From the NCBI GenBank assembly GCA_031701365.1, contig GCA_031701365.1_4118.1: a stretch of DNA of 64,000 nt. One strand, given 5' to 3'. The notes beneath the pieces are model-generated. The model was not told the DNA's origin, ran no database searches, and worked only from the letters and a program-made list of their open reading frames with translations. Position 1 is the first letter of the stretch. Every line of letters begins with the position of its first letter. The position numbers and the translations under genes are program-made. The stretch is from Escherichia coli. Its GTDB lineage: Bacteria; Pseudomonadota; Gammaproteobacteria; Enterobacterales; Enterobacteriaceae. Of this stretch, positions 5,712-56,736 are shown in pieces.

Positions 5712-6500
5712 ATGAGCACTATCGATGAACTGATTCAACGGAATTCAAAATATTACCAACCATCAGAAATTGTGGATAACATTACTAAATCTGAGTTTGG
5801 ACCGAACACACGCAAACTCATTCATGTAATGTCACGTGATGGCTTTAAATGTGATTGTTGTGGTGAATCAAATGTAGTATTCACTTTACACAAGCACAGT
5901 ACTAAAGAACGTTATAAATTCAGACCTTATGTACTTAAAGGGAAACGTCTTGTACGCATGACGTTAGACCATAACGTACTGGACTGTCTTCAGGGCGGTA
6001 ATGATAAAGAGAACATGACTGCATTGTGTGAAGATTGTAACGCATTACGTCAGCATAAGTTTGCTGAGTACAGTGAGTTTAAACACTGGTATCATAACGC
6101 GGATCGTTCAATCGAGCCTGACGTTAACTACTGCTTCATTGAGTACATTAAGAATGCAAAAGATACATACATTCTTAAATCAATGTCACCTATTACCGTG
6201 TTTCCTGAGAACCTATTCACTACATTAAAGAATAGTTTTATTGTAGGTGATATTGATGCATTCAAGTATTTTGACAAAGGTGCAAAACATTTTGAAATTC
6301 AATGTCTTAGTACTGCACTATGTGAACTCATTAAAATTTACATAAAAGAGTATTTGGGTATTGACAATGTACGTGTACCAGAGTATACTTTTTCTATTGA
6401 ATTCAATTGTGAATCAATCAAAGAGTTTGGAATTCTTTTCAATAAACAAATAGAACTTGCAATTCAAAACGAAATCAAGTACTATACTACTAACATTTAA
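5712..6500 (+). CDS. HNH-family endonuclease (putative free-standing homing endonuclease)
   Basis: 262 aa with CDCCGE zinc knuckle and LDHNVLDCLQGGNDKENMTALCEDCNALRQHK, matching the HNH signature DH..GG..N..LC..CN..K. Confidence 0.7.
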   Translation: MSTIDELIQRNSKYYQPSEIVDNITKSEFGPNTRKLIHVMSRDGFKCDCCGESNVVFTLHKHSTKERYKFRPYVLKGKRLVRMTLDHNVLDCLQGGNDKENMTALCEDCNALRQHKFAEYSEFKHWYHNADRSIEPDVNYCFIEYIKNAKDTYILKSMSPITVFPENLFTTLKNSFIVGDIDAFKYFDKGAKHFEIQCLSTALCELIKIYIKEYLGIDNVRVPEYTFSIEFNCESIKEFGILFNKQIELAIQNEIKYYTTNI

Positions 6501-6515
6501 TCAGAGGAAATTATC

Positions 6516-6698
6516 ATGCAAATCATCATTCTTATCGTTGGTATCATGTTGGGTGTTTATGGTCACTCATGGATGAACGAGAAGTTTCCTAATACGCGTC
6601 CTGAATATTGCAGTTCTAATGTATTCCAGAATGGTGAGAAACCAAAGGAAAGCATTGGTAAAAAGCTGGATAAAGTACTTGATGTGATCAATGAATAA
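6516..6698 (+). CDS. small membrane protein
   Basis: 60-aa ORF with N-terminal hydrophobic helix, RBS GAGGAAA. Confidence 0.5.
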   Translation: MQIIILIVGIMLGVYGHSWMNEKFPNTRPEYCSSNVFQNGEKPKESIGKKLDKVLDVINE

Positions 6699-51600: not shown

Positions 51601-51690
51601 GTTTTACATCAGGACGGGGAACGAAATAAGTAACTTCCCGTTAAGTAGCCCAGGAGTAAGGCAAACGAAAAACTCCCCTGATAAAATAGT
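51601..51690 (+). ncRNA. candidate structured leader or small RNA (copy 1 of 2)
   Basis: about 90 nt between tandem promoters, about 90 percent identical to 62262-62345; ends AUCAGGACGGGGA and UCCCCUGAU can pair to enclose the element. Confidence 0.3.
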
Positions 51691-51750: not shown

Positions 51751-52362
51751 ATGAAAACTATCACTACTACTACTTTCGTTATGGATTTTTCTGAATTGAA
51801 CGCAGAACAAAAAACGTCAGCTATCGAACTGGTTCGGGAACGTGAAAAAAACTCAAACGATGATTATTTTTCTGAAAGTGAAATTGAATACTATAAAGAA
51901 ACAGTACTACCGGAATATGGCATTAATGACGCTGATTTACGATTCAGTGGCTTTTGGTCCCAGGGTGACGGTGCATCAATCAGTACTGACCACGTTGACG
52001 CAGTGAAGTTTTTACGCAAGGTAAGAGCATTAACTAAGTATCGCTCAATCCGTCACCTGCTGAATGAAGATGATTTGGCGATGAGTGTAAAGCGTTCGCA
52101 CTCCCACTACTCGCATGAGAATACTGTAAGCGGGTACATTGAATCGGCTTACACTGATTTAACCGCAAAACAAGAAACGTTAGTTAATGAGCTTGAGGAA
52201 CTACTCACTGAAACTATTCGTGAATTATCCCGCAAGTTGTACCGTGATTTAGAGAATGCATATGAGGATCAATTCACTACTGAAAACATTACGGCACTGA
52301 TTGAGGGTAACGAATATCAATTCAATGTTATTGATGGCGTAGTAGAATCAATCGAATATTAA
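51751..52362 (+). CDS. hypothetical acidic protein
   Basis: 203-aa ORF. Confidence 0.65.
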   Translation: MKTITTTTFVMDFSELNAEQKTSAIELVREREKNSNDDYFSESEIEYYKETVLPEYGINDADLRFSGFWSQGDGASISTDHVDAVKFLRKVRALTKYRSIRHLLNEDDLAMSVKRSHSHYSHENTVSGYIESAYTDLTAKQETLVNELEELLTETIRELSRKLYRDLENAYEDQFTTENITALIEGNEYQFNVIDGVVESIEY

Positions 52363-53051: not shown

Positions 53052-53255
53052 ATGAGTGATTTAATTGAACGTATCAAAGAGCTTGAAGAAAAAGAATTGC
53101 AGTTAATCGGCTTACAGAATAAAATCTTTCATGATTTGGGGAGTTTTATCAATGCCTGGGATAGTGGCGATCCTGATGCGTTACCTGCTAACCGCACGGC
53201 AATGATCAATGATGTGCGTGGTGTCTTTGATTATGTTTTAAAGCAATTAAATTAA
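53052..53255 (+). CDS. hypothetical protein
   Basis: start set at ATG 53052. Confidence 0.55.
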   Translation: MSDLIERIKELEEKELQLIGLQNKIFHDLGSFINAWDSGDPDALPANRTAMINDVRGVFDYVLKQLN

Positions 53256-53563: not shown

Positions 53564-53731
53564 CAACGCGGGGAGATAATAACTCCCCGTTACTTTTTCA
53601 GTACTGAATCATTTAATAGACGGATCTATGCACCCGGTGGGTTAGTGACTGTTTCGTCTTGATGTAGTAATTATGCCAGTACTGGATGCACTTGTCAACA
53701 ATTATTTTCCAAATACTTTTTATTAAAATAC

Positions 53732-53786: not shown

Positions 53787-53806
53787 GGTAACTAAGGAAT
53801 AAGAAA

Positions 53807-54043
53807 ATGGTCGAACAAATCAAATCAACGTCTTCGAATGTAACGGGAACGGTAGCACACTTTACTAGTGATGAATCGCGGGGCGTTCCCTATTGTGCTG
53901 TACATGTAAACACTGAGGGTAACTACTGGTTTACGGTTTACGGATCATATTCATTTGGACGGCCAGGGCATCAAAAAATTCTGGATAAAGTACAACCAAC
54001 GGGTAAAAATATCACTGCCGAAATGTTTTATAAAAAATCATAA
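53807..54043 (+). CDS. hypothetical protein
   Basis: 78-aa ORF, RBS TAAGGAA. Confidence 0.6.
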   Translation: MVEQIKSTSSNVTGTVAHFTSDESRGVPYCAVHVNTEGNYWFTVYGSYSFGRPGHQKILDKVQPTGKNITAEMFYKKS

Positions 54044-54047
54044 AGTA

Positions 54048-54107
54048 CTTGATAATAGTTTTTAGTACTGTATAATATTTTACATCGCAAGGGGGAGCGG
54101 TTCCCCC
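54048..54107 (+). promoter_or_regulatory. PeSL-like promoter plus stem-loop
   Basis: TTGATA, spacer with AGTACTG, TATAAT, GGGGGAGCGGTTCCCCC. Confidence 0.6.
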
Positions 54108-54127
54108 TGGTAACTAAGGATAATCAA

Positions 54128-54427
54128 ATGAAAATTGCAATCATCGCCCTGGCTTTATCTGTTTCCTCTTTCGCTGTTAATGCGTCGTTAGATGTAAGTA
54201 GTGAAAAATTCATTCAGTGCACTGTTGCAATGACCGATGAAAGAACTGGCGAGATTGTTTTAAAGGATTTAGAGATCCAGCCAGAAGCATTTAAAAACGG
54301 GCCGTTCCATGAAGAAGACGAAAACGGTAGCACAACAATTTATTATGATGCAAGTACTAAACGCGGTTCGGTCACTGTTATGGATACTGAGAAAGTAACG
54401 CACACCGGAGTAATTAACTGTTTATAA
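54128..54427 (+). CDS. putative secreted protein
   Basis: 99 aa; signal peptide ending AVNA. Confidence 0.65.
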   Translation: MKIAIIALALSVSSFAVNASLDVSSEKFIQCTVAMTDERTGEIVLKDLEIQPEAFKNGPFHEEDENGSTTIYYDASTKRGSVTVMDTEKVTHTGVINCL

Positions 54428-54444
54428 TATAGTACTGAATCACT

Positions 54445-54472
54445 AGCCCACCTTAAACAGTGGGCTTTTTTG
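54445..54472 (+). terminator. intrinsic terminator (copy 1 of a duplicated element)
   Basis: AGCCCAC-CTTAAACA-GTGGGCT plus T6; about 45 bp identical to 55163-55207. Confidence 0.75.
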
Positions 54473-54524
54473 TTTTTGTATTATCGTAGTACTGCATACT
54501 TTAAAAATAGTTTTAAAATAGTAG

Positions 54525-54552
54525 TTGACATTACCACAAAAAGGCGTAGAAT
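54525..54552 (+). promoter_or_regulatory. sigma70-type promoter (TTGACA-17-TAGAAT)
   Basis: read directly; followed by a long leader beginning AAGACGGGGAGC. Confidence 0.55.
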
Positions 54553-54675
54553 GTATTACATCAAGACGGGGAGCACTAAGTAGACCGCCAGTAAGTCGAA
54601 CGAAAAACTGGACACGTCGATAAAACTTTGATACACTAATAAACGTAAACTAAACTTTAATTGAGGATTTATAAA

Positions 54676-55158
54676 ATGGCTAATGTAAAATCATTCCTGA
54701 AAGCACTGATTTCAAACGATACTGTTATTGCTGCTGAATTGTTGGCTGACCTGGATAACGATACCATGAAAGCAGTACGCAACAATTTTAACATTGCGTA
54801 CAGTGAAGCTAAAGAACTGCAAGCCAAAAAGGTAGCAGAACTGGAAGAACAGAAAAAAGCCCGTGAAGCCGAACTGCAAGCAACAATCGAAAGTATCCAG
54901 GCGGCGGTGGCTGGATTGGATCTGGAAGTAGTTGTAGAAATGGCACATAAAGCCCTGGCGGTTAAGTATGGTGAAGATAAGCCAGAATCTAAACCTAAAA
55001 AATGGATTCAAGAACGTGTTACTGTAGTACTTGATAACGGGGAAGAACATATGATTCCTGTACGCGGTAACTGCATTGCGGTAGTACTGGACGCTATCAA
55101 AGAAAGCGGTATGACTCGCGAGGAATGGATCGAAGCTCATCGCAAAGTTGAAGCATAA
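54676..55158 (+). CDS. hypothetical protein
   Basis: start set at ATG 54676; flanked by duplicated terminator elements. Confidence 0.65.
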   Translation: MANVKSFLKALISNDTVIAAELLADLDNDTMKAVRNNFNIAYSEAKELQAKKVAELEEQKKAREAELQATIESIQAAVAGLDLEVVVEMAHKALAVKYGEDKPESKPKKWIQERVTVVLDNGEEHMIPVRGNCIAVVLDAIKESGMTREEWIEAHRKVEA

Positions 55159-55179
55159 CAATTAAAGTACTGAATCACT

Positions 55180-55207
55180 AGCCCACCTTAAACAGTGGGC
55201 TTTTTTG
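55180..55207 (+). terminator. intrinsic terminator (copy 2)
   Basis: identical hairpin AGCCCAC-CTTAAACA-GTGGGCT plus T6. Confidence 0.75.
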
Positions 55208-55360
55208 TGTCTGTAGTATTCCAGTCCACCAGCACCGCCTAGAATCGATTCTAACGCATTAAACTGATTATCTGATACATCGCCCTAGCTGGTGGCGTTA
55301 AGGTCGTTAGAATGCGATTGAGAGCGTTTAAAGTATTTTGCAAAAAGTAATAAAAAGTAC

Positions 55361-55421
55361 TTGCACGATTAAGAGATTAGCGTATAATGTTTTACATCGA
55401 GAGGGGGAAACGGTTCTCCTT
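55361..55421 (+). promoter_or_regulatory. PeSL-like promoter plus stem-loop
   Basis: TTGCAC, TATAAT, GTTTTACATC, hairpin GGGGGAAACGGTTCTCC (one G-U pair). Confidence 0.55.
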
Positions 55422-55443
55422 CCAAATCAAAGGAATCAAAACA

Positions 55444-55671
55444 ATGGCTATTATCATTACTCGCGTATCTGGTACTACTGGCAACGAACAAGTAGTTGCA
55501 GTCATTACTAACAAGGCAGGTGCGGAATTGCAAAATGCAATGAATACCTGGGCCGTTAATGAGTTCGGTCAGTGGGCAAGTGTAGCATACATTGAAACCT
55601 ATCAAGTGCCGTCGATTAGTTTAACTGATTTGGGCGTTGAGCGTATCCTTTGCCTGGATGAATTAAATTAA
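55444..55671 (+). CDS. hypothetical protein
   Basis: start set at ATG 55444. Confidence 0.6.
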   Translation: MAIIITRVSGTTGNEQVVAVITNKAGAELQNAMNTWAVNEFGQWASVAYIETYQVPSISLTDLGVERILCLDELN

Positions 55672-55680
55672 AAAAAGTAC

Positions 55681-55739
55681 TTGCAAAGTAAATCGAATAA
55701 AGTATAATACATTACATCAAGGGGAGAAATGGTTCTCCC
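55681..55739 (+). promoter_or_regulatory. PeSL-like promoter plus stem-loop
   Basis: TTGCAA, TATAAT, GGGAGAAATGGTTCTCCC. Confidence 0.6.
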
Positions 55740-55758
55740 TGATAATGAGGAAACTAAA

Positions 55759-55971
55759 ATGGCTATCATTACTAAAATCAAAGTTAACAAGACTATCGTT
55801 AAACTGGCAGAAGTGAAAGAAGGTTATAAAGTATCTTGGTGCGGTATGTATCGGACGTTCGCAGATATAGATGATGCGATCAATTATTACAGTGACACGG
55901 TTAAAAACTTTGTTCGTGCTGATGTGGTTATGGCAGTGGCAACATATAAAGCAGCGAAAGAAAGTAAGTAA
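55759..55971 (+). CDS. hypothetical protein (MAIIxK family; related to the 59009 gene)
   Basis: start set at ATG 55759. Confidence 0.6.
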   Translation: MAIITKIKVNKTIVKLAEVKEGYKVSWCGMYRTFADIDDAINYYSDTVKNFVRADVVMAVATYKAAKESK

Positions 55972-56466: not shown

Positions 56467-56736
56467 ATGAAAAATATCAGTACTTTAATCGATGCAGGTA
56501 CACATGTTCGTCGGTCTATGGTTGCAACCAGTTCTACAAAACAAGTACCAAGCGGTTATCTTGTATTTGTGCACGATGGAAAACTCCTGGAACGTTCAAT
56601 CAATTTTGATGTTAAAAACAATTGCCGTTTTATTATCTTTCGCCGTGAACAATATAAAATTGATTTGCCAGCGAAGCCCATTAGCGGGGCGTACAACGTG
56701 CAATCATTGTTTGAGCGTCAACCATACACCTATTGA
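56467..56736 (+). CDS. hypothetical protein
   Basis: 89-aa ORF, RBS AGAGGA; preferred over the overlapping 56492 ORF. Confidence 0.55.
   Translation: MKNISTLIDAGTHVRRSMVATSSTKQVPSGYLVFVHDGKLLERSINFDVKNNCRFIIFRREQYKIDLPAKPISGAYNVQSLFERQPYTY

What the first reader, a model, noticed from the sequence alone, without database searches (positions are those of the whole stretch)
54428..55210. Gene flanked by identical terminator-containing direct repeats
The 54676-55158 gene is bracketed by two about 45-bp identical copies of AGTACTGAATCACTAGCCCACCTTAAACAGTGGGCTTTTTTGT (54428-54475 and 55163-55210). This is the signature expected of a cassette inserted or exchanged by recombination between repeated regulatory elements.
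Basis: seen in the sequence. Interest (0 to 1): 0.4.

Follow-up and report, generated by a model that had tools for sequence, protein, structure and literature searches.

The report
Twin terminators around phage H-NS-like gene
The repeat is real, but it is two copies of one transcription terminator that fence off a conserved early gene for an H-NS/MvaT-like DNA-binding protein in a jumbo coliphage, and the gene does not come and go between the repeats.

Summary
Observation confirmed. An exact 43-nt direct repeat lies at 54431-54473 and 55166-55208 (57 nt at 93%). Each copy is an intrinsic terminator: a 7-bp stem AGCCCAC/GTGGGCT followed by T6.

The window is an Asteriusvirus jumbo phage, 98.7-100% identical to PBECO4 across this region. 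The repeats bracket a self-contained unit: promoter, ~115-nt structured leader, 160-aa gene, terminator.

The protein belongs to an H-NS/MvaT-like family, on moderate evidence. It sits at a syntenic position in Klebsiella and Salmonella jumbo phages.

The cassette reading is not supported. All 20 GenBank Asteriusvirus loci examined that carry the gene have a terminator of this type on both sides, and no genome shows a repeat-bounded empty site. The one genome lacking the gene (EJP2) has a replacement with other breakpoints. More distant relatives bracket the gene with two unrelated terminators, so insulation looks ancestral and identity secondary.

Loop alleles shared by both copies within a genome (CTTAAACA, TATAAACA) suggest occasional gene conversion. 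Real indels abut terminator 1: a 231-nt gene upstream in half the genomes, and an HNH endonuclease downstream in TH47.

Ordinary overall. Side observations are more striking: AGTACT enriched about 11-fold, Chi about 17-fold, and a covarying promoter-proximal RNA hairpin family.

The parts
54128..54427 (+). Upstream 99-aa early gene (phrog_31669, function unknown). Its transcript is ended by terminator 1.
   Evidence: ORF list and PHROG match. Conserved in relatives. In 10 of 20 GenBank loci a 231-nt gene is inserted between this gene and the hairpin of terminator 1.
54428..54484 (+). Repeat copy 1 = terminator T1. Exact core 54431-54473, hairpin 54445-54466, T6 at 54467-54472. The left arm AGTACTGAATCA is an instance of a genome-wide motif.
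   Evidence: Fold energy -13.5 kcal/mol, z = -2.4. Annotated as a terminator in G17. Motif enrichment.
54525..54552 (+). Sigma-70-type promoter of the gene: TTGACA, 16-nt spacer, TAGAAT (11 of 12 consensus positions).
   Evidence: Promoter scan. Conserved in all relatives, including the distant L028.
54559..54625 (+). Promoter-proximal leader RNA element, short form. It has the conserved single-stranded stretch UAAGUAG and a hairpin (stem 54588-54591 with 54608-54611) that presents the conserved loop GUAAG.C..ACGAAAA.
   Evidence: Family found by pattern in the window (3 copies) and in all related loci. The stem is 100% paired, and 3 of 4 pairs show compensatory changes across 7 distinct sequences, with 0 of 500 shuffles reaching the observed score. 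No Rfam match.
54676..55158 (+). 160-aa gene for an H-NS/MvaT-like protein: helical N-terminal domain with a long coiled coil, a linker, and a C-terminal beta-hairpin plus two helices.
55163..55219 (+). Repeat copy 2 = terminator T2. Exact core 55166-55208, hairpin 55180-55201, then T6.
   Evidence: Fold energy -14.6 kcal/mol. Present after the gene in all 20 GenBank Asteriusvirus loci examined, with the left arm nearly invariant, and in the metagenome contigs that reach it.
55226..55295 (.). Inverted pair of Chi octamers just downstream of T2: CCACCAGC at 55226-55233 and GCTGGTGG at 55288-55295.
   Evidence: 11 Chi sites in the window against 0.63 expected. The + strand Chi after this terminator is present in all 21 Asteriusvirus-type loci checked and in L028 and L030. 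K64-1, Muenster and 7t3 carry + strand Chi elsewhere in the locus.
55361..55388 (+). Promoter of the next early unit: TTGCAC, 16-nt spacer, TATAAT. It belongs to the repeated promoter plus 5' stem-loop family.
   Evidence: Repeat families D1-D3. A promoter-bounded indel of a 153-nt gene occurs at this site in 121Q, G17, JNE01 and A4.

Best explanation
The repeats are two paralogous copies of one Rho-independent terminator. They act as insulators around an autonomous early transcription unit in the terminal-repeat (first-entering) region of an Asteriusvirus jumbo phage.

T1 stops transcription coming from the upstream small-gene units. About 50 nt later a near-consensus sigma-70 promoter starts a transcript. 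That transcript carries a ~115-nt leader with a conserved hairpin and encodes a 160-aa H-NS/MvaT-like DNA-binding protein. T2 ends it.

The unit is fixed and vertically inherited; it is not a mobile cassette. The near-identity of T1 and T2 is specific to the PBECO4/121Q-type genus. It most likely arose when the T2 sequence was copied into the T1 position. It has since been kept by structural constraint on the stem and by occasional gene conversion between copies only 735 bp apart.

Shown here: the repeat, the terminator anatomy, the promoter, conservation of the unit, absence of repeat-bounded indels, and shared loop alleles. Inferred: actual termination, the direction of copying, gene conversion as the mechanism, and DNA binding by the protein.
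For: - Repeat and terminator features.
- Own promoter and conserved leader.
- A terminator of the same stem type lies on both sides in all 20 GenBank Asteriusvirus loci that carry the gene and in the metagenome contigs that span both sides.
- Stems never vary, whereas loops vary freely. They also flip: TTATACA in 121Q against TGTATAA in E9.1, and TATAAGAA at T1 in JNE01 against TTCTTATA at T2 in ph0011. That pattern fits a hairpin constrained by structure.
- Both copies share CTTAAACA in six genomes and the derived TATAAACA in L025 and L035.
- Only two sites exist per genome copy.
- The gene is present in 37 Asteriusvirus-type records and, at 31-38% identity and a syntenic position, in K64-1, Muenster, RaK2 and 7t3.
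- The distant relatives L028 and L030 and the Klebsiella and Salmonella phages have the gene between two unrelated terminators or lack the repeat.
- The region lies inside the ~21-kb direct terminal repeat in relatives with mapped ends (PMC13070987).
- Protein family evidence; PMC4466236.
Against: - No transcript-end data exist, so termination at either site is only predicted.
- Sharing of loop alleles is statistically modest. Counting distinct T1/T2 pairs, 2-3 identical pairs are observed against about 0.7 expected under random pairing (my own count). The CTTAAACA identity could simply be retained ancestry.
- The conserved 14-nt left arm is not needed for a hairpin terminator. Its conservation is only partly explained by its being a copy of the genome-wide AGTACTGAATCA motif.
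- The window protein itself gives no Pfam H-NS hit. A profile search of PDB sequences found no H-NS. The Q/RGR motif is replaced by RGN.
Confidence: 0.72

Rival explanations
1. First reader's model. The promoter-gene-terminator unit is a cassette that entered, or is still exchanged, by homologous recombination between copies of the terminator. One route would be integration of a circular promoter-gene-T intermediate at a pre-existing T, which leaves T on both sides.
For: - Direct repeats that exactly bracket a complete expression unit are what such an integration would leave.
- PeSL-mediated shuffling is documented in T4-like phages (PMC2839356, PMC4122927).
- A promoter-bounded indel occurs 200 nt downstream.
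- A conserved Chi pair adjoins T2.
- The repeat is genus-specific.
Against: - No empty site or tandem product appears in any of the 20 GenBank loci or the metagenome contigs examined.
- The gene is present in every matching Asteriusvirus record and is syntenic across genera. It therefore pre-dates the repeat.
- EJP2's loss of the gene has other breakpoints.
- The terminator is not a dispersed family; it has only these two sites.
Confidence: 0.08
2. Selection for a specific shared signal. The whole 43-nt element (left arm AGTACTGAATCACT plus hairpin) is recognised by a phage or host factor. Candidates are an RNA-processing enzyme, a termination or antitermination factor, or the H-NS-like protein itself acting on the DNA. 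Both boundaries of the unit must then carry the same sequence. The conserved promoter-proximal leader hairpin could be the partner element, in the way a put or nut site is.
For: - The left arm is nearly invariant at T2 in all genomes and at T1 in all genomes without the 231-nt gene, while the flanks diverge.
- The leader hairpin family covaries and always sits directly after strong promoters.
- AGTACT-containing motifs are enriched about 11-fold genome-wide, which suggests a DNA- or RNA-level reader.
Against: - Ten of 20 GenBank loci replace the T1 left arm with the end of the 231-nt gene, as do several metagenome contigs, so the arm is dispensable at T1.
- Distant relatives manage with two unrelated terminators.
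- No factor or precedent has been identified, and there are no Rfam matches.
Confidence: 0.12
3. Two independent terminators that resemble each other by chance or convergence.
For: Short GC-rich hairpins followed by T runs are common, and 10 terminator-like sites occur in 50-60 kb.
Against: The 43-nt identity includes a non-structural left arm and an 8-nt loop, and 0 of 100 shuffles give even one match. The same stem occurs at both sites in every genome.
Confidence: 0.01
4. Footprint of a transposable or site-specific element: a target-site duplication or attachment sites flanking an inserted gene.
For: Direct repeats flank a single gene.
Against: A repeat of 43-57 nt is far longer than a target-site duplication. 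No transposase or integrase lies between or beside the repeats, and no terminal inverted repeats are present. The only mobile gene seen is an HNH/NUMOD4 endonuclease in TH47, inserted between T1 and the promoter rather than bounded by the repeats.
Confidence: 0.02

Closest known systems
Rho-independent (intrinsic) terminators used as insulators between phage early transcription units
   Same: A GC-rich 7-bp stem with an 8-nt loop and T6, placed immediately after stop codons on the coding strand. One copy precedes a promoter and one follows the gene.
   Different: The two copies are identical over 43 nt, including a 14-nt upstream arm. They appear to be homogenised within genomes.
PeSL (promoter-early stem-loop) mobile regulatory cassettes of T4-like phages (Arbiol et al. 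2010, PMC2839356; Comeau et al. 2014, PMC4122927)
   Same: A region of many small early genes. Each has a repeated promoter plus stem-loop (families D1-D3). T1 followed about 50 nt later by a promoter forms a composite terminator/promoter. At least one neighbouring indel is bounded by promoter repeats.
   Different: The terminator repeat has only two copies per genome. No indel of the bracketed gene maps to it. The phage is a RaK2/PBECO4-type jumbo phage, not a T4-like one.
H-NS family xenogeneic silencers and their copies on mobile elements (MvaT, PDB 2MXF, PMC4466236; phage-encoded H-NS, PMC3097231; review PMC7074111)
   Same: The predicted domain plan is alpha1-alpha2-long alpha3-alpha4, a linker, then a beta-hairpin and two helices. 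The orthologues pass Pfam's threshold for Histone_HNS_N. The C-terminal-domain model matches only the MvaT C-terminal domain. The invariant Gly-Asn aligns with H-NS G113-R114, which is the position of MvaT N100 (PMC4466236).
   Different: There is no Pfam hit for the window protein itself and no Q/RGR motif. Sequence identity to H-NS is marginal (hhalign probability 49%). The function is untested.
Concerted evolution (gene conversion) of short intragenomic repeats, and hairpin-loop inversions
   Same: Both copies share allele-specific loop variants within a genome. Loops appear as exact reverse complements between genomes.
   Different: The tract is only about 40 nt and the sample is small, so conversion is inferred rather than demonstrated.

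Membership tests
Intrinsic (Rho-independent) terminator | GC-rich hairpin directly followed by a U/T tract on the transcribed strand | tested here: met
   Both copies have a 7-pair stem (5 G-C), an 8-nt loop and T6. Fold energies are -13.5 and -14.6 kcal/mol, z about -2.3. ARNOLD calls are recorded in the G17 annotation.
Intrinsic (Rho-independent) terminator | Position at the 3' end of a transcription unit | tested here: met
   The T1 hairpin starts 17 nt after the stop codon of the 54128-54427 gene. The T2 hairpin starts 21 nt after the stop codon of the 54676-55158 gene.
Intrinsic (Rho-independent) terminator | Transcripts actually end there | not testable with these tools
   No RNA-end data were available.
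PeSL-type mobile regulatory cassette | Composite of stem-loop/terminator and early promoter | tested here: met
   T1 (54445-54472) is followed by the promoter at 54525-54552. Neighbouring units carry a promoter plus 5' stem-loop (D1-D3).
PeSL-type mobile regulatory cassette | Many dispersed, similar copies in the genome that offer homology for exchange | tested here: not met
   The terminator sequence occurs only at these two sites per genome copy in 37 records and twice in the window.
PeSL-type mobile regulatory cassette | Indels between close relatives with breakpoints in the repeats | tested here: not met
   None of the 20 GenBank loci or the metagenome contigs lacks or duplicates the gene at the repeats. 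The EJP2 replacement has other breakpoints. The feature is met only for a neighbouring promoter-bounded indel.
H-NS / MvaT family | N-terminal coiled-coil oligomerisation domain (Pfam PF22470) | tested here: inconclusive
   The K64-1 and Muenster orthologues score 27.1 and 25.5 bits against a cut-off of 24.5. They are 35-38% identical to the window protein over its full length. The window protein itself gives no hit. The AF2 model shows two short helices, a 50-residue helix and a fourth helix.
H-NS / MvaT family | C-terminal DNA-binding domain fold (beta-hairpin, helix, short helix) | tested here: met
H-NS / MvaT family | Minor-groove motif: Q/RGR (H-NS, Lsr2) or the AT-pincer with Asn (MvaT) | tested here: inconclusive
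   Q/RGR is absent; the family has R/K/N/S-G-N with invariant G131-N132. hhalign places G131-N132 on H-NS G113-R114, and PMC4466236 equates H-NS R114 with MvaT N100.
H-NS / MvaT family | Binds and bridges AT-rich DNA | not testable with these tools
   This needs EMSA, bridging assays or ChIP.
Transposon / integron-type cassette | Recombinase gene, terminal inverted repeats or attC-like site, short target duplication | tested here: not met
   The only ORF between the repeats is the 160-aa gene, which has no recombinase domain. No terminal inverted repeats are present. The repeat is 43-57 nt long.

The most novel reading that the evidence does not exclude
The identical terminators, their conserved AGTACTGAATCACT arm and the covarying promoter-proximal hairpin RNA could be parts of one phage-specific control system. 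The hairpin RNA has 3 copies in the window, always directly after a strong promoter, with an invariant loop GUAAG.C..ACGAAAA. One possibility is an RNA-mediated (put-like) or factor-mediated antitermination or processing switch. Such a switch would decide whether early transcription stops at, or reads through, the boundaries of the unit encoding an MvaT-like silencer. That silencer is delivered on the first DNA to enter the cell.
Probability: 0.08. Interest if true: 0.65.

Novelty: new member of a known kind. Interest (0 to 1): 0.28.

Why it matters
The repeat itself is a routine feature, a duplicated terminator pair, so the finding matters little on its own terms.

It does offer a clean small example of two things. 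Regulatory hairpins can act as stable module boundaries while genes are inserted on either side of them: a 231-nt gene upstream and an HNH endonuclease downstream. Two nearby copies can also be homogenised over time.

The gene inside the repeats is more interesting. An H-NS/MvaT-like protein is conserved across RaK2/PBECO4-type jumbo phages and encoded in the terminal repeat that enters first. It is a candidate for manipulating host or phage chromatin early in infection.

The surrounding signals deserve their own study: the extreme excess of AGTACT, the excess of Chi with a universally conserved site after T2, and the leader RNA family.

Tried and rejected
- **Sequence searches of PDB.** Neither the family profile nor K64-1 gp430 found an H-NS entry.
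- **Pfam on the window protein.** Only sub-threshold noise.
- **More relatives.** An IMG/VR search returned only 121Q itself. An exact-pattern scan of metagenome contigs for the 21-nt left half gave one contig. I therefore used protein look-ups to fetch further contigs.
- **RNA databases.** Rfam and tRNA search found nothing in the intergenic regions.
- **Energy tests.** MFE z-scores for the leader and for the downstream spacer were not significant. RNAalifold on a MAFFT alignment that mixed long and short forms recovered only 3 pairs. The hairpin was then tested on an ungapped 39-nt alignment instead.
- **First Python fuzzy-regex script.** It timed out.
- **Considered and dropped.** Target-site duplication or integron cassette (no recombinase, repeat too long). 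Chance resemblance. Assembly artefact (the same arrangement occurs in more than 20 independent genomes).

Full report
**1. What the window is**

The stretch 53800-55800 is 98.7% identical over its full length to Escherichia phage PBECO4. It is 86-98% identical to about 35 other Asteriusvirus jumbo phages of E. coli and Salmonella, with genomes of 310-386 kb. PBECO4 is 100% identical across the finding itself.

In relatives whose physical ends are known, the locus lies 5-15 kb from the left end, inside the ~21-kb direct terminal repeat. The supporting evidence:
- The fEgEco12 gene is at 6069-6548 of a genome with a 20,993-bp terminal repeat (PMC13070987).
- Terminal-repeat features are annotated over the match in vB_Ec-M-J and Muenster.

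The neighbourhood is a run of small + strand genes. Each has a near-consensus sigma-70 promoter of a repeated type, often with a 5' stem-loop (families D1-D3).

**2. The observation**

The repeat is real.
- An exact 43-mer lies at 54431-54473 and 55166-55208. No other copy exists in 64 kb at up to 3 mismatches, and no shuffle gives a match.
- Similarity runs to 57 nt at 93% (D4).
- Each copy is a textbook intrinsic terminator: stem AGCCCAC/GTGGGCT, loop CTTAAACA, then T6. The G17 GenBank record annotates both orthologous sites as terminators.
- The copies start 4 and 8 nt after the stop codons of the 54128-54427 and 54676-55158 genes respectively.

**3. Anatomy between the repeats**

| Feature | Coordinates | Source |
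|---|---|---|
| Promoter TTGACA-16-TAGAAT, about 50 nt after T1 | 54525-54552 | |
| Leader of about 115 nt | about 54559-54675 | |
| GAGGA | 54663-54667 | |
| 160-aa ORF | 54676-55158 | |
| T2 | 55163-55219 | |

The repeats therefore bracket one complete, monocistronic expression unit.

**4.

I compared 20 GenBank Asteriusvirus loci, several metagenome contigs and three more distant phages.

*No repeat-bounded gain or loss.* Every one of the 20 GenBank loci that has the gene also has a terminator with the same stem both before the promoter and after the gene. None has a repeat-bounded deletion or tandem duplication. The metagenome contigs that span both sides show the same arrangement. tblastn finds the gene in all 37 Asteriusvirus-type records that match.

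*The one genome without the gene.* EJP2 lacks it. It has a 270-nt gene with a different terminator instead. Similarity to the window resumes only at about 55288, inside the downstream spacer, so its breakpoints are not at the repeats.

*Vertical inheritance.* The gene is present at 31-38% identity in Klebsiella phages RaK2, K64-1 and Muenster and in Salmonella phages 7t3, SE_PL and Munch. In these phages it lies between the same flanking markers, the homologues of window genes 51751-52362 and 56467-56736.

*Distant relatives.* Those phages, and two metagenomic relatives at 66% and 47% protein identity (L028, L030), keep the same layout of terminator, promoter, leader, gene, terminator. Their two terminators are unrelated to each other.

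Insulation of this gene therefore looks ancestral, and the identity of the two terminators is a later, genus-specific feature. The sequence is not a dispersed regulatory repeat, because it occurs only at these two sites per genome copy.

**5. What does vary**

T1 comes in three forms.

| Form | Genomes | Features |
|---|---|---|
| a | window, PBECO4, G17, JP4, slurp01; TH47 with a short deletion | Same left arm and same loop as T2 |
| b | 121Q, JNE01, Turkey5 | Same left arm, loop TATAAGGA or TATAAGAA, T7 tail |
| c | 10 of 20 GenBank loci | A 231-nt gene sits between the upstream gene and the hairpin; it replaces the left arm and leaves a 2-3-nt loop (CTG, CAG or GG) |

Other variation:
- TH47 carries an HNH_3/NUMOD4 homing-endonuclease ORF between T1 and the promoter.
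- The stems never change, but the loops change freely.
- Loops also appear as exact reverse complements of each other. 121Q T2 has TTATACA where E9.1 and Turkey3 have TGTATAA. JNE01 T1 has TATAAGAA where ph0011 T2 has TTCTTATA. SD-6 T1 carries an inverted TTAAAC.

**6. Do the copies interact?**

Within a genome, T1 and T2 share the loop CTTAAACA in six genomes and the derived TATAAACA in L025 and L035. The loop TTTAAACA is seen at T1 in L033 and at T2 in L034; these two contigs encode the same protein. The ph0011/JNE01 loop pair links a T2 allele to a T1 allele.

I read this as occasional gene conversion between the copies. The sample is small and the genomes are related, so this is an inference, not a demonstration.

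**7. The gene**

PHROGs places it in phrog_27871, function unknown. Pfam gives nothing for the window protein itself. The evidence for an H-NS/MvaT-type protein:
- The K64-1 and Muenster orthologues pass Pfam's gathering score for Histone_HNS_N (27.1 and 25.5 bits against 24.5).
- The Muenster annotators recorded an HHpred hit at 97.2% to NP_417155.1. From memory I believe this accession is StpA.
- AF2 predicts two short helices, a 50-residue helix, a fourth helix, a disordered linker, then a beta-hairpin and two helices.
It places the family-invariant G131-N132 on H-NS G113-R114. PMC4466236 equates H-NS R114 with N100 of MvaT's AT-pincer.

I therefore call it an H-NS/MvaT-like protein with moderate confidence. 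The canonical Q/RGR motif is absent. Phage- and plasmid-borne H-NS homologues are a known kind (PMC3097231, PMC7074111).

**8. Mechanism and rivals**

The best-supported reading is that T1 and T2 are insulators. They make expression of this DNA-binding protein depend only on its own promoter and leader. They are paralogous copies kept alike by stem constraint and occasional conversion.

- The cassette model survives only as a low-probability account of how the duplication first arose.
- A model in which the full 43-nt element is a specific recognition signal cannot be excluded. It is weakened by the genomes that lack the T1 left arm and by distant relatives that use unrelated terminators.

**9. 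Comparison with known systems**

The region works like the hyperplastic regions of T4-like phages, where PeSL promoter/stem-loop repeats mediate shuffling (PMC2839356, PMC4122927). A 153-nt gene indel next door has its breakpoints in the repeated TATAATnTTTTACATC motif.

The terminator pair itself fails two defining PeSL features: dispersed copies and repeat-bounded indels.

**10. Verdict**

This is an ordinary feature, a duplicated and probably homogenised terminator pair around a fixed gene, within an unusually signal-rich early region.

Noticed in passing
whole window (e.g. 54431, 54488, 55026, 55083, 55166): AGTACT is the commonest hexamer in the 35%-GC window: 252 sites against 21.8 +/- 4.4 expected. 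It is enriched in coding sequence (3.0 per kb, in all three codon phases) and still more in intergenic DNA (8.3 per kb), and usually appears as CAGTACTG. It lies at the -35 and -10 flanks of the early promoters and occurs in Klebsiella phage relatives as well. No paper in the library mentions it together with jumbo phages. The cause is unknown; a binding site or a modification site are possibilities.
   Followed up: partly
window 51609-51690, 54559-54625 and 62264-62345 (+ strand); also L002:694-795, L004:552-652, L005:3683-3785 and 6198-6298, L008:2084-2185, L028:2329-2420, L030:2252-2350: A conserved RNA-like element starts at the transcription start of strong promoters (ACATCAGGACGGGG...). 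It has the conserved stretch UAAGUAG and a hairpin whose 4-bp stem covaries (GGAG/CUCC, CCAG/CUGG, CCUG/CAGG). The loop GUAAG.C..ACGAAAA is invariant. The long forms are followed at once by a second promoter. EJP2 keeps the element although it lacks the H-NS-like gene. No Rfam family matches.
   Followed up: partly
window 55226-55233 (-), 55288-55295 (+), and nine other sites: The E. coli Chi octamer GCTGGTGG occurs 11 times against 0.63 expected, 9 of them on the + strand. The + strand copy a few tens of nt after terminator T2 is present in all 21 Asteriusvirus-type loci checked and in the distant L028 and L030. This suggests selection for RecBCD attenuation or for a recombination hotspot in the terminal-repeat region.
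   Followed up: partly
window 55383-55450, compared with L002:4120-4410 (121Q); also G17, JNE01, A4: Relatives carry an extra 153-nt gene (121Q gp278) plus a second promoter at this site. The indel breakpoints lie inside the repeated promoter/start motif TATAATnTTTTACATC. This matches recombination between promoter repeats, as in PeSL-mediated shuffling.
   Followed up: partly
L020:1064-1624 (Escherichia virus TH47), equivalent to window about 54480-54510: A 186-aa HNH_3/NUMOD4 homing-endonuclease ORF is inserted between terminator T1 and the promoter of the H-NS-like gene in this one genome.
   Followed up: partly
L006:2151-2381, L007:2150-2380 and eight other GenBank loci, equivalent to window about 54420-54444: A 231-nt gene with no family match is present in 10 of 20 GenBank Asteriusvirus loci. 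It lies between the 300-nt gene and the T1 hairpin. Its right-hand breakpoint is exactly at the start of the terminator stem.
   Followed up: partly
terminator loops in L002, L004, L017, L021, L022, L024: The terminator loops of different genomes are exact reverse complements of one another while the stems are unchanged (TTATACA/TGTATAA; TATAAGAA/TTCTTATA). This indicates hairpin-loop inversions.
   Followed up: no
window 53568-53590, and promoter units at 53252, 53720, 54037, 55349, 55669: The early promoters form a repeat family (AAAGTACTTGCAA-N16-TATAAT), often followed by a 5' stem-loop GGGAGAAATGGTTCTCCC before the ribosome-binding site (D1-D3, D7). A further terminator at 53568-53590 is followed by another AGTACTGAATCA motif.
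   Followed up: no
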